Source of the DNA: Harriotta raleighana
Taxonomy: Eukaryota
Assembly: GCA_050575255.1 (NCBI GenBank)
Contig: JBNZDD010013700.1
Location: 6,189,396 to 6,253,395, forward strand
Reading direction: 5' to 3'
DNA length: 64,000 nt
Shown here: positions 42,001-63,000 of the stretch, piece by piece
Numbering within the stretch: the stretch's first letter is position 1
How the letters are laid out: each line of letters starts with the position of its first letter
Program-made: the position numbers

Positions 42001-45000
42001 GGCCTCCTGCTCTATCTTATAAGTACTTGCAAGAATTTCTAGCATGAGTCTAGTTATGTGCTAAGCTGAGTGATAAGTAAAACAGAATCCCTTTATCAAC
42101 ATTTTGCATAGTAAGTGACCATGAAACTGACAACATGGGCACTCAAGTGGTAGTGACAAATTAAACTAGGGTAGAGTTATTAAGCATTAACTATATTTAC
42201 TACCATCTATGTTATTCCCAGTACAAGGCTCAGCAGATTGGTACCATTTAATATACTGTTTTGCGATTTGAAGTTGTGGGTCAAGGAGATGAGGCCATTG
42301 GTATAGACCAGATGGATAGATTGTCAGTAGGAGGAAGTTGATTATTATGAAGGTAATGATCACGTACACTTTTCATAAACTCATTGGCAGTGTTGCTTTC
42401 TTTCTTGAAGCAAATGATGTAGCATTTTGGAAGGAAATGGCAACATAAAATGCCATAGTTTGATGCCAAAATGGCAGCAATTTCAACTGCCGGGAGATAT
42501 TGACCTTCGATGTTAAGGTACACAATCACAAATGCCAACCATACAATGAAGTAGATAAGCATGCTGAATGTGATAAACCTGGCCTCATTATATGTGCAGG
42601 GCAGCTTTCTCCCCACGAAAGCAAGTGTAAAGCAAAAAATGGCAAGTAGAGCAATATATCCCAGCATCACACCAAAGGCAACATTGGAGCCTTCATCACA
42701 GAGTAGCAGAATGATTCTTGGTTTGTCATAATTTTTCGAAAAATGTGGAGGTTTAATTACTAACCAAATTGTACAAATAATCATTTGAATTCCAGTGCAG
42801 ATTATCAGAATTAATTTGGGTTGATATAATTTTTTCATTTGTTCATGGACAACCGGGTCAAATTTAAATGCCAAATTGATCCTAAAGGATTTGATCAAGA
42901 TCCATGATACACAAACAGTGAAGCTTATGCCAAAAAAAGGCTGCCTAATCATGCACGTGAAGTTTTCTGGCCGACCAATAAAAAATCCAGTACTGGCAAA
43001 GCTGAGGATGAGCGAAAATAGAATTAAATAACAGAGAGAACCTCCAGCAGCCTTTACCACTGGTGTGCTCCGACTCAGGATGAAAATGATCATGATTACA
43101 ACTATCAAAATGATTCCCAAAGCGGCGAAAAGTGTCAGTGCAATCGCAAAACCATTGTTCCATCTAAGGAATTCGATCTTTCTGTCATTGCATTTTGAGC
43201 TTCCACTCGGAGACCATTGATTATCTAAGCATTTAAAACAAGTATTTGTATCTGTAATAGGAAGAAAAATGAATTCAGATTTGATAAATAAAAACATGGG
43301 AACAAAAGATAAATATTTAGCCCATCAAGTTGGTTCTGCCAGTTTATTAAATTGTACTAGATTTTAAAAATCCCACTTCCCTGTCTTGTCTCATACCCAT
43401 TAAAAACTTTCCTTCTCAAGTATCTAGGTCCCTTTTAAACATCCAAATTAATTCTGTTTTTGTGTTTGTTTGGGCAGAACATTTCATGCGTACACAACCA
43501 GAACTTTCAGTTTAAAGCAGTACTTTCTAATTTTCCTGATAAGAATAATAATCCTTGCATTTGATATAGTCCCTCCACCCTCCCCATCCCCAACCCCAGT
43601 TTGGGTCTAAAACAATGACGCCTTGGATATCTTCCTGACATGAAGGGCGCTATACAAGTGTAAATTTGTTGTTGTTGCTCTAGACATCTCAAACCACTTC
43701 ACTGCAAAGTGAATTGACTATATTTTGCGACTAAAACACAGCAACCAATGGCACACAGCAATGTTCAACAAACAGTCGTGGATTGAATGTCCAAATTTTT
43801 CTTTATTTATTCATCCATTCATTTATTTTTGAAGGAATTATTACCCTTGGAAAAAAATATGTTGAACAATAACAACCAGGTTCCTAGTTATTACTGGGTA
43901 AACAGAGGCATGGTAAGGAAGGAAACTTGCCTAAGATTTTGCTCTGCCCAGGAATCAAACCCATGTCCTCTCATTTGTGAGGCAAATGCTCTAACCACTA
44001 TGCTGCAGGACTCTACATGGTCTAACATTTTACATGTTATTTTTAGATTATGTTTCTTCATTTTGTGGTAATAGTCGCTCACTACCTATCTGTCAATTCT
44101 CTTCATTATTTTAAACTGATCTGAAAAGGAACTGTCAAAATTGTGCTATTTGCTTAATGTTGCCATAGTCTGATCAAACATATTGTTTAGGTTCTATTTG
44201 CCTGTTCAGGTTGACGTTAAAGATCCCAGGCCACAATTTGAAAAGAGAGGAGAGTGTCTTCTGGTGTCCTGGCTCACTATCCCCCTGACCAAAGAAAAGT
44301 GATTCATTTTATGGCTGTTTGTGTGACATTGCTGTGTGCAAACTGACTGCCACATCCACCTACAAAATACACAGTCACTAAACTTTACAGTAAAATCCTT
44401 TGATGCACTTTAAAAGCACTTTAAGATGTGTTGACCAACATAATAAAGTTGTCAAACTACATAAAAATATAGGGATAATCATTATTGCATTTTGGCATGT
44501 CTTATCACCTTTTGATGTCACATAATTAATCATTGATACTTACCCGAATTTTGGGAGTAGAAGCCCTCTGAACAGTTTTCACACTCATAGCAACAGATGG
44601 GTAAGGTATTATTTTGAATCTTCCGTTGTCCAAGTTTGCAGGATTGGGAACAGATGGAAATTATGTTCTAGGAAGAAGATAATTAAAGCATGATTTATTC
44701 TATAATACAAATATCCCATTTTCATAAGACGTGGCTAGCCTTTGTCAGGGTTACATACTTTCGAGATGAAAATTGTGTTATGTTAGTTATCAATAATATT
44801 GTACTACTACATAATATATTGTTAAGAAATAAATGTGATCAGTCAATAATTAATGCATTAAATGGTCCATTGGTGATCTCCCTCCCCACTAAAGCAGAAT
44901 TCAAAAAGAGTTATCTCAGAGGAGATCTTATAGAGGCATACGCACCCATGTTGCATCCCCATGATGAAATGTGATAAAATAAAGCCAAGAACAATACATT

Positions 45001-60000: not shown

Positions 60001-63000
60001 TCGTAATCGGTGCTATACATCATGGAGCGGATGAAAGCTTCTTTATCTTCAGGCTCTGGATACACAGAGGTCATTCCATTTTTGCACGCATATTCCATAG
60101 TCTGAAAGAGAAACATAAACAGGTCTGGACCAGGAAATAAAGAACTTGTATATTGGTAGCTTCCGGTTATGCAGAAATCTCAATACACTTCATAAGCAAT
60201 TTGAATTAAGATCAGTAATTACTGTATTGAGGAAATAGATCCAAGTCAGAAATGGTAGAGTCGAACATTTATCATTATCTCTGATCTTGCAATGCCGATG
60301 TTCAAAGGGATTCATCATACTGTGCAAACAGATCTGAAGATTTCTGTCAACTATCTGTTTGTCATCTCTTATGGAGTACAAATTAAAAGTCTTTGTCCAG
60401 CAAAATAGAACAAAATCTATTGCATAAGGTATTTCTTCATTCTGACCATGTTGCCAGTCTCTCTTCCCACCCAGGCATCACTCCACTATGTCAATGAATT
60501 GCTCTACCTAGGATTCCTATGGCAGATGCATGCAAGACGTTCAGATAAAATAATCAAATACTTCGTTATTTACTTTCAGGTGGGAACAATAAGGGAGCCA
60601 GCAAATTCACTGGTTATTCACTGGTATGACTTTCAATTTCAAGGGAAGAGGAAGGGTTCTATTTTTAACCACTCGGCAGGAATTCCCTCATTGCTGGACA
60701 ATACCTTAATAAGGTCTTCCTGATTCTTCATTCTTTAAATTTTGGCATACCTTCACATACTACACTCCACCATCCCTCCAGACCTTAATTCTACAATCAT
60801 GACACTTCTCAATAAGTCTAAATATCTATTGTTGCAATAAAGCAAAATACAAACTGCTTTAGGGAACACACACCATATCTAAAATGGGATTAGCAATGTC
60901 ATATGAATGAGAATCACTATTAATTAAAAATGTCAACGCCACTTTCAATTGTTTTCATGCTTCTTGTCTATCAGAAGAATAAAATCCAAGAATGAGTGAG
61001 AGATGCTGAATAAGGAAAACAAGACAATTTGCTAACCCCACTGGCAGACACTATTATCTCCGCCAATCGACTATTGATTGGGTTCCTCTATTTATTTGAA
61101 TAGAAGTTTAACACTTCATAGAATCGTAGAATTATACAGCCCAGAAGGAGGCCATTCGGCCCATTTTGTCTTTGAAAAGAGCTCTTTGAAAAGAGCTACC
61201 CAAATCAATCCCCACTTCCATCACTTCCCCACTCTCTCCCCATAGCCCTGCAAACTTGTCCTCCTCAAATAATTAACTACAACAACAACAACAACTTTGA
61301 TTTATATAGCGCCCTTCACACCGGACTGCGTTTCTTTTAAAAGTTGTTATTGAACATGCACCAGACACAGGTATACTAGAGAGGACTTGCTACTCTCCAG
61401 GCCTTTGATGCACCATCCACATATTTGCAAAAAGCTTTTGAAATTGAAAATCTGCCAGTTGTTTCTATCTTCCCCGACCTTCATTATTCTAGGATTTTCA
61501 TTTCTATTTTGAAATATTTTCTTAATATGTTTGCTTTCATTATTAATCTCTTACAAATCCCTCTCTGATACTTCTAAATCCTACTTTCACCTTACTCTGT
61601 AAATACCAAAGCAAAGAACATACTAAGTATCTCTGCATTGCCTTAAATAGAAGATTGCCCCATTTGCCTCTAAGAGGTCCCATCATTTCATTCACTATCA
61701 CCTTTTCTGTTCCTTTTTCTGCAGACTGCCATTTAATCTTCCACTTACCCTCATAACTCATAGTTATGTGTGAAATCTTCTTTGCTGATTAGGTGTGGAA
61801 GTAATCAGAATAATAAAATTTAAGTGGTTAAAACTTTTAAAATACAATGTATGAGAAGGCAATGAGTATTGCCATACTATAGACAGTAAGAATCAGATAG
61901 CATTCAACTCTGCATAACTGTCCAGTGACTCAATCAGGGAGGTGGATATATGATAAGGAAAGAAGTAAAATCTCTATTATGGAACAACACAACTATTAAA
62001 ACTTGCAGTTGATGCAGCACACATTTTGAAGAGTTCATGACATTACTCCAATGTATAGTGTTTGTATTTGCAGGTTAAAAAACTCTACTGTTTTTATTAC
62101 CTGCACGGCCAGTTTCAGAGAAACATCCCGAATAGTATTGAGTGGTGGGTATAAGCGACCTTCAGCCAAATGTTTCTCAGACACCTGCTCAGCTAAAACC
62201 TGAAACAAGAGTAAAATGATTTAAATAAAATAGAAGGTTTAACACATTATTGAAGCAATATTGACCTTCTTCCTCTGTTCCAATGTCACTTTTTCTCACA
62301 TCTCTCACGCACGCTCTTTCTTCCTTTGTCCTGTTCTGCTTCCTTTCCCTCCCAAACAACTGAACAGAAACCTCATCATGAAACAGTATATTGACAAGCT
62401 TAACATTCAATCACATCCAAATCCACCGATTTAAATGAACAGGAAGCGCTTAAACAAGTACACAAATGTTAGATAGGTTGTTGCTGCTCTATGTTGCTAT
62501 ACTAACCAGGTCTTACTGACTTCATCCAACTTGCTAAACAATTGAGCTGAGCATAGCACACCAATATGTATTATTTAATATTAACATCCCTCGTATCAGA
62601 TCAAAATGTCACAGAACACTTCACACGATGGATGGCAACAAATTACATTTTTCATTTTAGCTAACATCCATAATCGTGCATCCAAATCAGACAGAGCCCC
62701 AGATATACATGCCACATATACAGTACATAGAAATTTCCCTGTTCCTGAAATAGAATGCCCTCTTATCTTTTTGGATAGATATCAAACATCCTGTTTAACT
62801 AGTTCCAAAATGTACCAGATGCAGGTTGACGTGATTCAAGGCTTTGGGGGGAATATGTGCTTCCTTTTGGTAAGTAGACAAGTTCCTGCCTCCAGTGACC
62901 GGGCCACCCTATTCAAGTCCTGTCGATGAGCCTGGCTGGCCGATCGATCACCGATAGTGTCCTAGAGTACCACATGCCTGCATGGCTCAGGAATCAGAAG

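What the first reader, a model, noticed from the sequence alone, without database searches (positions are those of the whole stretch)
42281..60101. Intact GPRC6A-type receptor directly downstream of ME1: candidate separate paralogue
Seen: a complete 889-aa class C GPCR starts about 3.9 kb after the ME1 stop on the same strand. Known: human GPRC6A neighbours RFX6/FAM162B, and ME1 neighbours PGM3/RWDD2A with no such receptor. Inference: this may be a distinct GPRC6 lineage, an orphan amino-acid or chemosensory receptor kept in cartilaginous fish and lost in mammals.
Basis: partly seen in the sequence, partly recalled or inferred. Interest (0 to 1): 0.72.

Follow-up and report, generated by a model that had tools for sequence, protein, structure and literature searches.

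The report
Ancient GPRC6A sister receptor in chimaera
This is an intact gene for an amino-acid-type class C receptor that belongs to an old sister branch of GPRC6A, one that fishes and amphibians kept and that no amniote sequence examined here belongs to; the branch is already catalogued in sharks as "V2R-like", so the gene is real but ordinary.

Summary
Window 42281-56017 (minus strand) carries six open exons with GT-AG introns, summing to 2670 nt (889 codons plus stop). They encode a Venus-flytrap domain, a nine-cysteine domain and a 7TM domain. The gene starts 3.9 kb after the stop of an NADP-malic-enzyme gene on the same strand; ME1 versus ME3 could not be settled. Each exon is collinear with Callorhinchus milii "GPRC6A-like" at 71-87% identity, so the window is from another chimaera. 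Separate trees for exon 3 and exon 6 both place the gene outside GPRC6A proper. GPRC6A proper has its own shark members. The window gene sits in a second lineage with shark and ray "GPRC6A-like", teleost "OlfCB1" and amphibian "GPRC6A-like" genes. AU tests reject a chondrichthyan-only duplication (p 4e-8 full-length database proteins, 0.005 exon 3, 0.019 exon 6). It is already in print, though: Sharma et al. 2019 named these genes V2RL, counted three in elephant shark and inferred two ancestral genes. The lineage is also not confined to cartilaginous fish. All eight residues of the amino-acid-binding signature are present, so an L-amino-acid sensor is likely but untested. Exons were never joined.

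The parts
55821..56017 (-). Receptor exon 1: ATG at 56017, hydrophobic N-terminus (probable signal peptide) and start of the Venus-flytrap domain. 197 nt, ends in phase 2, donor GTAAGT.
   Evidence: 86% identical to P0001 residues 1-65
49325..49631 (-). Receptor exon 2, 307 nt: Venus-flytrap lobe 1, including the first serine of the amino-acid signature.
   Evidence: ANF_receptor 9.4e-15; 84% to P0001 67-167
46982..47848 (-). Receptor exon 3, 867 nt (289 codons): main part of the Venus-flytrap domain with the other seven signature residues (exon-3 positions S6, R21, D26, Q29, Y54, G55, D137).
   Evidence: (ANF_receptor 1.8e-36)
45459..45662 (-). Receptor exon 4, 204 nt: end of the Venus-flytrap domain.
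   Evidence: 71% to P0001 457-524
44544..44667 (-). Receptor exon 5, 124 nt: nine-cysteine domain. Six cysteines lie here and three more at the start of exon 6.
   Evidence: (NCD3G 3.6e-12)
42281..43251 (-). Receptor exon 6, 971 nt including the TGA stop: end of the cysteine-rich domain, seven transmembrane helices and a short C-tail.
   Evidence: 7tm_3 8.8e-79, profile 1-251/251; 83% to P0001 567-885
56018..59912 (.). 3895-nt spacer between the malic-enzyme stop and the receptor ATG; presumably holds the receptor's promoter and 5' UTR (not examined). It contains one single-N position (57530).
59913..60101 (-). Last coding exon (62 codons plus TAA) of an NADP-dependent malic enzyme gene.
   Evidence: ME3 62.7 bits, ME1 55.0, ME2 34.5 or less
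62101..62199 (-). Penultimate coding exon (33 codons) of the same malic enzyme gene; boundaries read from the frame and not checked further.
   Evidence: ME1 45.4 bits, ME3 40.3, ME2 24.8; Malic_M 2.3e-05

Best explanation
The region holds one intact six-exon gene on the minus strand for an 889-codon class C G-protein-coupled receptor. It is the orthologue, in a chimaera other than Callorhinchus, of the gene that NCBI calls 'GPRC6A-like' in Callorhinchus milii. It belongs to an ancient sister lineage of GPRC6A, called Y here and covered in the literature as V2R-like (V2RL) or OlfCb1-type. Lineage Y separated from GPRC6A proper (X) before cartilaginous and bony fishes diverged. It survives in chimaeras, sharks, rays, ray-finned fishes and amphibians, and contained no amniote sequence in my samples. 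Proposed mechanism: like its relatives, the receptor works as a disulphide-linked dimer. An L-amino acid binds in the cleft of the Venus-flytrap domain through the conserved backbone-binding residues. Closure of the cleft is passed through the nine-cysteine domain to the 7TM bundle, which activates a G protein. Shown here: gene structure, domain content, intactness, lineage placement and conservation of the ligand-backbone residues. Inferred only: dimerisation, ligand class, G-protein coupling, tissue and physiological role.
For: Structure and intactness. Orthology: win+Callorhinchus 100/99 in both careful per-exon trees, and the clade with shark and ray 'a' genes 98/96 (exon 3) and 100/99 (exon 6). 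X excludes the window gene and contains four shark 'GPRC6A' proteins (Cetorhinus, Mustelus, Hemiscyllium, Pristiophorus): 100/99 exon 3 and 96/90 exon 6, and 100* in a full-length tree of 81 database proteins without window sequence. Y is monophyletic at 96/97 (exon 3), 91/81 (exon 6) and 99* (full length). AU tests, holding all chondrichthyan rows together: rejected at dlnL 102, p 4.3e-8 (40 rows x 896 columns); dlnL 38.8, p 0.005 (exon 3 with the window row); dlnL 21.5, p 0.019 (exon 6). Holding X plus chondrichthyan Y together: rejected at p 0.0067 on full-length proteins. The same species carry both lineages: Mustelus P0487 (X) and P0007 (Y); Cetorhinus P0485 (X) and P0486 (Y); many teleosts, for example Aulostomus P0317 (X) and P0104 'OlfCB1' (Y). 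Ligand site: all 8 signature residues listed by Alioto & Ngai 2006 are present. Exon-3 S6, D26, Q29, Y54 and D137 align with CaSR S170, D190, Q193, Y218 and E297. Nine cysteines lie in exon 5 plus the start of exon 6. Literature: V2RL family with two ancestral genes.
Against: On exon 3 alone the AU test does not reject chondrichthyan Y as sister of X (dlnL 13.7, p 0.17). In the 82-row quick tree of exon 6 the relation among X, Z, chondrichthyan Y and bony-fish Y is unresolved, and Y reaches only 91/81 in the careful tree. The groups for the AU tests were named after I had seen the trees. Rows were hand-picked: 81 of 490 proteins held, then 40 of those 81. Absence of Y from amniotes rests on truncated hit lists (120 of 220) and on annotated proteins only. 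There are no expression, ligand or coupling data for any member of Y; catshark v2rl probes gave no signal in the olfactory epithelium in one study and sparse cells in another. Which catshark or elephant-shark v2rl number corresponds to this gene is unknown, because those sequences are in supplements I could not open.
Confidence: 0.82

Rival explanations
1. It is the single 1:1 orthologue of GPRC6A, moved next to a malic enzyme gene by rearrangement along one chromosome.
For: NCBI and UniRef names of the closest proteins say GPRC6A or GPRC6A-like. The ligand-site residues are shared with GPRC6A-type receptors. Exon 3 alone cannot reject a sister position next to X (p 0.17). Human ME1 and GPRC6A are both on 6q (recalled, not tested).
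Against: Four sharks have a separate protein that groups with tetrapod and teleost GPRC6A to the exclusion of the window gene. Mustelus and Cetorhinus carry both types. X plus chondrichthyan Y as one clade is rejected on full-length proteins (p 0.0067).
Confidence: 0.04
2. It is a cartilaginous-fish-specific duplicate of GPRC6A, that is an in-paralogue and co-orthologue, rather than a member of an ancient lineage shared with bony fishes.
For: Sharks have up to four such genes on contigs of identical length, as expected from local duplication: Heptranchias a, b, c on 137,863,001 and Heterodontus a, c on 214,641,634. Within Y the chondrichthyan genes do form one clade (95*).
Against: Holding all chondrichthyan rows in one clade is rejected: p 4.3e-8, 0.005, 0.019. 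The a/b/c duplications lie inside Y, not between X and Y.
Confidence: 0.04
3. The reading frame is intact but the gene is silent or decaying, a recent pseudogene with no function.
For: No transcript evidence was available. The preprint 10.1101/2025.11.14.688574 reports repeated GPRC6A loss in mammals (passages), so the wider family is dispensable in places.
Against: There are 890 codons without a stop across six exons, and all ten splice sites are canonical. Conservation is highest in the 7TM and ligand-binding exons (83-87%) and lowest in exon 4, the end of the Venus-flytrap domain (71%). The binding signature and all nine cysteines are kept. The branch to the window exon is as short as that to Callorhinchus (0.069 versus 0.073; 0.17 versus 0.13).
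Confidence: 0.06

Closest known systems
[quoted passage not shown]
   Same: All six exons are collinear with residues 1-885. Identity per exon is 86, 84, 87, 71, 79 and 83%. It is the sister of the window exons at 100/99 in both careful trees.
   Different: A different species: 13-29% of residues differ. The window model is 4 codons longer, with one extra residue in exon 2 and three at the C-terminus.
V2R-like (V2RL) family of cartilaginous fishes (Sharma et al. 2019, PMC6368271)
   Same: That family is described as catshark (5) and elephant shark (3) genes orthologous to zebrafish OlfCa1/OlfCb1 and mammalian gprc6, sister to T1Rs, with two ancestral genes. My trees give the same picture: T1R reps are the nearest outgroup and there are two chondrichthyan lineages.
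   Different: I could not map the window gene to a V2RL number because the sequences are in supplements. My sampling also shows a third lineage, Z (lungfish plus teleosts), that their text does not mention.
Teleost OlfCb1 ('olfactory receptor CB1', NCBI names for Stegastes, Brachyhypopomus, Aulostomus)
   Same: Same lineage Y in every tree; same domain set.
   Different: Only 38-40% identical in exon 3. Zebrafish OlfCb1 was first taken for a pseudogene and I saw no ligand reported in the passages I read.
GPRC6A proper (mammals, sauropsids, caecilian, teleost and shark 'GPRC6A')
   Same: Class C architecture and six coding exons. The amino-acid signature is present in the window gene. The two lie on the same chromosome-sized contig in sharks (equal contig lengths).
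   Different: A separate clade (X). Identity to shark GPRC6A (Mustelus P0487) is 41% in exon 3 and 54% in exon 6, and 39-40% in exon 3 to mammals. The window shows a malic enzyme gene as neighbour, not RFX6/FAM162B.
Goldfish receptor 5.24 / zebrafish OlfCa1 (amino-acid odorant receptors)
   Same: The 8-residue binding signature defined on these receptors is complete in the window gene.
   Different: Their lineage (X or Z) could not be fixed here because no retrieved protein carries those names. They are deorphanised; the window gene is not.
Calcium-sensing receptor (closest solved structure)
   Same: Best PDB match for exon 3 (1.5e-42) and exon 6 (1e-80). The L-amino-acid contact residues align.
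   Different: Clearly outside the clade: CaSR groups with V2Rs. Identity is 32% in exon 3 and 43% in exon 6. None of the 60 chains listed in each search was named GPRC6A.

Membership tests
Class C (family 3) GPCR | Venus-flytrap (ANF_receptor) plus nine-cysteine domain (NCD3G) plus 7tm_3, in that order | tested here: met
   exons 2-3 ANF_receptor, exon 5 NCD3G, exon 6 7tm_3 over the whole profile. Nine cysteines counted in exon 5 plus the start of exon 6.
CaSR/V2R/T1R/GPRC6A subgroup | Six coding exons with a long exon 3, a 124-nt exon 5 and one large 7TM exon (pattern recalled, not from a call) | tested here: met
   exon lengths 197/307/867/204/124/971 nt.
GPRC6A proper (lineage X) | Nests in the clade that holds mammalian GPRC6A | tested here: not met
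   X excludes the window row: 100/99, 96/90. X has its own shark members. The Callorhinchus stand-in is excluded at 100*.
GPRC6A proper (lineage X) | Neighbours RFX6 / FAM162B (synteny used for orthology in 10.1101/2025.11.14.688574) | tested here: inconclusive
   Upstream neighbour is an NADP-malic enzyme. The 42 kb downstream holds only repeats and no further class C exon. Genes beyond the window could not be seen.
Lineage Y (V2RL / OlfCb1-type) | Forms a clade with teleost OlfCB1-named, amphibian and chondrichthyan 'GPRC6A-like' proteins | tested here: met
   99*, 96/97, 91/81; 99* for the Callorhinchus orthologue on full length. Unresolved in the 82-row exon-6 quick tree.
Lineage Y (V2RL / OlfCb1-type) | Identity with one of the three elephant-shark V2RL genes of Sharma et al. 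2019 | not testable with these tools
Amino-acid-sensing class C receptors | Eight-residue signature S, S/T, R, D, Q, Y, G, D/E (Alioto & Ngai 2006) | tested here: met
   The serine 17 residues before the end of exon 2, and exon-3 S6, R21, D26, Q29, Y54, G55, D137. Spacing matches the published numbering for the first seven. The eighth was placed by alignment to CaSR E297.
Amino-acid-sensing class C receptors | Activation by L-amino acids | not testable with these tools
   Needs expression and a signalling assay.
CaSR, main V2R/OlfC, T1R | Nests in the respective clade | tested here: not met
   CaSR rep (P0158, named), V2R reps and T1R rep (P0186, named) are all outside the X+Y+Z clade (98*; 88/81; 93/89).

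The most novel reading that the evidence does not exclude
The label 'GPRC6A(-like)' in databases hides three old genes, not the two in print. X is GPRC6A proper. Y is the window gene, OlfCb1 and the amphibian copies. Z is found in lungfish plus teleosts. All three would have arisen on one ancestral chromosome before or near the origin of jawed vertebrates. Y would have been lost in amniotes and Z in cartilaginous fishes and tetrapods. The malic-enzyme flank would be the ancestral address of Y. If so, fish data quoted for 'GPRC6A' (5.24, OlfCa1) may belong to a different gene than the mammalian one, and Y would be an undeorphanised nutrient sensor of gill and oral epithelia.
Probability: 0.35. 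Interest if true: 0.4.

Novelty: new member of a known kind. Interest (0 to 1): 0.25.

Why it matters
It matters little for discovery, because the family and its double origin are published and the nearest orthologue is already annotated. It is useful for tidiness in three ways. It shows that a holocephalan 'GPRC6A-like' gene is not GPRC6A. It shows that sharks and many teleosts carry both genes, and teleosts often a third. It shows that database names mix these lineages, which matters for anyone transferring GPRC6A function or loss stories across vertebrates. The receptor itself remains an orphan with a complete amino-acid-binding signature, so it is a fair target for deorphanisation.

Tried and rejected
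The query was not repeated.

2. The AU test on the full 81-row, 891-column alignment did not finish in three runs. I replaced it with a 40-row subset.

3. I tried to place zebrafish OlfCa1 in a lineage by looking for proteins whose signature residues sit at the published numbers. Twelve proteins from all three lineages matched 7 of 8 positions, so the test is uninformative.

4. ME1 versus ME3 from PDB scores gave conflicting answers in the two exons, and Pfam gave only Malic_M.

5. The search for a second receptor copy or pseudogene fragments in the window found none.

6. Rfam at gathering thresholds and ARAGORN on the whole window each gave 0 hits.

7. No structure prediction, complex prediction or atlas search was run. 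A fold of the whole receptor would have needed the joined protein, and dimerisation is claimed only by family analogy.

8. Genome contigs was not used because it holds only bacteria and archaea.

9. First-pass FastTree trees served only to choose rows.
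Full report
**Observation.** The window is AT-rich (GC 0.34-0.46) and full of repeats. Between 42281 and 56017 the minus strand carries six stop-free stretches whose translations read like a class C receptor.

- The exons join through canonical splice sites: all five introns begin GT and end in a pyrimidine tract plus AG.
- Exon lengths are 197, 307, 867, 204, 124 and 971 nt.
No search, fold, alignment or tree in this report used a joined sequence, and the length comes from arithmetic on exon coordinates.
- Pfam finds ANF_receptor in exons 2 and 3, NCD3G in exon 5, and 7tm_3 over its full profile in exon 6.
- The six exons align one after another to residues 1-885 of Callorhinchus milii 'GPRC6A-like' (P0001) at 86, 84, 87, 71, 79 and 83% identity. 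An annotated orthologue therefore backs the model.
- tblastn with seven class C proteins hits these six places and nothing else in the 64 kb.

**The neighbour.** The ORF at 59913-60179 ends a gene on the same strand. Its last exon starts at 60101 and its stop lies 3895 nt before the receptor's ATG. A second exon lies at 62101-62199. Both are NADP-malic-enzyme-like and far from ME2. The last exon scores higher with mitochondrial ME3 (62.7 versus 55.0 bits), while the penultimate scores higher with ME1 (45.4 versus 40.3). 'ME1' is therefore plausible but not shown from the window.

**Which species.** The best hit in a search of exon 3 against the protein collection is Callorhinchus at 87%, followed by sharks at 56-69% (220 hits at E<=1e-10, best 120 listed). 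The window thus comes from a holocephalan other than C. milii, whose own protein is not in that list.

**Which gene: how the sample was built.**
- Exon 6 was searched against cluster representatives (3494 hits at E<=0.001, best 150 listed, unnamed).
- First-pass FastTree trees of the exon-6 region (224 rows) and the exon-3 region (129 rows) showed several groups.
- Before those trees I dropped 21 near-identical mammalian GPRC6A rows. I also dropped rows whose BLAST match covered under 270 of 322 (exon 6) or under 260 of 289 (exon 3) query residues.
- I then spent the two remaining homology searches on two of the groups.
- One group proved to be teleost 'GPRC6A' (120 listed of 350; 119 carry teleost species names, one has no name).
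- The other proved to be a third set of teleost 'GPRC6A-like' plus lungfish 'GPRC6A'. The same list also brought shark proteins that NCBI names 'GPRC6A' without '-like' (120 listed of 534).
- PDB searches named the outgroup representatives as CaSR and T1R.

**Trees.** I picked 81 of the 490 proteins then held, by hand, to cover all groups. I aligned them and added the window's exons as separate fragment rows.

| Tree | Rows x columns | X (GPRC6A proper) | Y (window lineage) | Z |
|---|---|---|---|---|
| Exon 3, quick | 82 x 286 | 97* | 99* | 97* |
| Exon 6, quick | 82 x 352 | 93 | chondrichthyan Y 88; bony-fish Y 97* | 98* |
| Full length, database proteins only, quick | 81 x 891 | 100* | 99* | 99* |
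| Exon 3, careful | 41 x 287 | 100/99 | 96/97 | 97/96 |
| Exon 6, careful | 41 x 353 | 96/90 | 91/81 | 99/95 |

- X contains four shark GPRC6A plus tetrapod and teleost GPRC6A.
- Y contains the window gene with Callorhinchus (100*), shark and ray 'a' genes, shark 'b' and 'c' genes, amphibian 'GPRC6A-like', bichir and teleost OlfCB1.
- Z contains lungfish plus teleosts.
- In the 82-row exon-6 tree the order of the four groups (X, Z, chondrichthyan Y, bony-fish Y) is unresolved.
- In the full-length tree each lineage follows the species tree.
- In both careful trees the window exon sits with Callorhinchus at 100/99.

**AU tests.** The groups were named after I had seen the trees, which weakens the p-values.

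| Rows held together | Data | dlnL | p-AU | Result |
|---|---|---|---|---|
| All chondrichthyan rows | 40 full-length rows | 102 | 4.3e-8 | rejected |
| All chondrichthyan rows | Exon 3 with window row | 38.8 | 0.005 | rejected |
| All chondrichthyan rows | Exon 6 with window row | 21.5 | 0.019 | rejected |
| X plus chondrichthyan Y | 40 full-length rows | 20.6 | 0.0067 | rejected |
| X plus chondrichthyan Y | Exon 3 alone | 13.7 | 0.17 | not rejected |

The test on all 81 rows never finished.

**Other support.** The same species hold both lineages: Mustelus P0487 (X) and P0007 (Y), and Cetorhinus P0485 (X) and P0486 (Y). Aulostomus and Mugil each have X, Y and Z proteins on contigs of three different lengths. 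Every amniote row that I kept fell in X. This fits loss of Y in amniotes but does not prove it.

**Mechanism.**
- The eight residues that Alioto & Ngai 2006 give as the amino-acid-receptor signature (passages) are all present.
- These are a serine 17 residues before the end of exon 2, then exon-3 S6, R21, D26, Q29, Y54, G55 and D137.
- The spacing equals the published numbering for the first seven. The eighth aligns with CaSR E297.
- That these CaSR positions contact bound L-tryptophan is recalled, not from a call.
- Nine cysteines, a full 7tm_3 match and a hydrophobic N-terminus complete a working architecture.
- I therefore commit to a dimeric L-amino-acid sensor that signals through a G protein. 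Only the sequence features are shown; the rest is analogy.

**Tissue.**
- For catshark, v2rl1 and v2rl3 are reported highest in gills, with v2rl1 also in oesophagus, skin denticles and dental lamina.
- v2rl4 is reported highest in 'brain & olfactory epithelium' and enriched in gills.
- v2rl1 and v2rl4 show scattered epithelial cells and sparse olfactory cells (PMC11979771, passages).
- An earlier preprint saw no olfactory signal for v2rl1 and v2rl3 (10.1101/2022.11.27.518102, passages).
- I cannot say which of these genes is the orthologue.

**What is known.**
- Sharma et al. 2019 (PMC6368271, passages) named V2RL, counted five genes in catshark, three in elephant shark, two in zebrafish (OlfCa1, OlfCb1) and one in mammals, and deduced two ancestral genes.
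- Ahuja et al. 2018 (passages) showed OlfCb1 to be intact.
- Hashiguchi & Nishida 2006 (passages) and Alioto & Ngai 2006 treated fish 5.24/OlfCa1 as the GPRC6A orthologue.
- A 2025 preprint on GPRC6A loss uses RFX6-side synteny down to frog and does not mention sharks or this lineage (passages).
- Nishihara et al. 2023 use GPRC6A only as an outgroup (passages).
- In my four literature searches I found no paper that links this lineage to a malic-enzyme locus or sets out three lineages. That is a statement about those searches only.

**Verdict.** But the lineage is published, is wider than cartilaginous fish, and its closest orthologue is already annotated. This is a new member of a known kind, of low to moderate interest.

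Noticed in passing
window 30508, 33571, 38272, 38399, 54314, 54913, 55071, 57530: Each of the 8 single-N positions sits at the joint of a two-copy tandem duplication. The 60 nt after the N repeat the sequence 56-246 nt upstream at 44-60 of 60 positions, and TRF lists 7 of the 8 as arrays of 1.9-2.0 copies at 93-100% identity. This looks like overlap left at assembly joins. None lies in an exon. Nothing was filled in.
   Followed up: partly
window 7516-8730 (-): Two adjoining ORFs match reverse transcriptase RVT_1 (6.2e-14 and 7.8e-10), so this is a LINE fragment. Similar-looking ORFs at 40536-40991, 35915-36190 and 1421-2008 gave no Pfam hit.
   Followed up: partly
window 123-449, 21172-21534, 30005-30906, 33675-34021, 54064-54619, 58629-59026 and others, both strands: A short interspersed element recurs many times; the same translated words turn up in ORFs all over the window. 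ARAGORN finds no tRNA and Rfam nothing. Copies were not counted or classified.
   Followed up: no
window 48458-48892 (intron 2 of the receptor): A C-rich low-complexity block with four short tandem arrays of periods 22-31. It raises local GC to 0.45 and yields long proline/serine-rich ORFs on both strands.
   Followed up: no
window 1-42280: The 42 kb downstream of the receptor shows no convincing gene: ORFs of 90 aa or more are repeat-like and there is no further class C exon. RFX6 or any other flank gene, if present, lies beyond the window.
   Followed up: partly
related proteins (P0132, P0148, P0387, P0397, P0428 and others): A third lineage, Z, of 'GPRC6A(-like)' proteins contains lungfish plus many teleosts and is separate from X and Y (97-99*). 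Its position is unstable: sister of X+Y in exon 3 and sister of Y in exon 6. No chondrichthyan or tetrapod member was seen in my lists.
   Followed up: partly
related proteins (P0003/P0011/P0019, P0004/P0022, P0005/P0016, P0486, P0489): Inside Y, elasmobranchs have three subclades (a, b, c) on contigs of equal length within a species. From Callorhinchus only the 'a' type appeared in my three truncated lists.
   Followed up: partly
window 49325-49630 (-), exon 2: Exon 2 alone matches solved T1R3 chains better (83 bits) than CaSR (63 bits), whereas exons 3 and 6 match CaSR best. This fits the published sister relation of V2RL and T1R.
   Followed up: no
window 59913-60101 and 62101-62199 (-): The two malic enzyme exons disagree on ME1 versus ME3 affinity.
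   Followed up: partly
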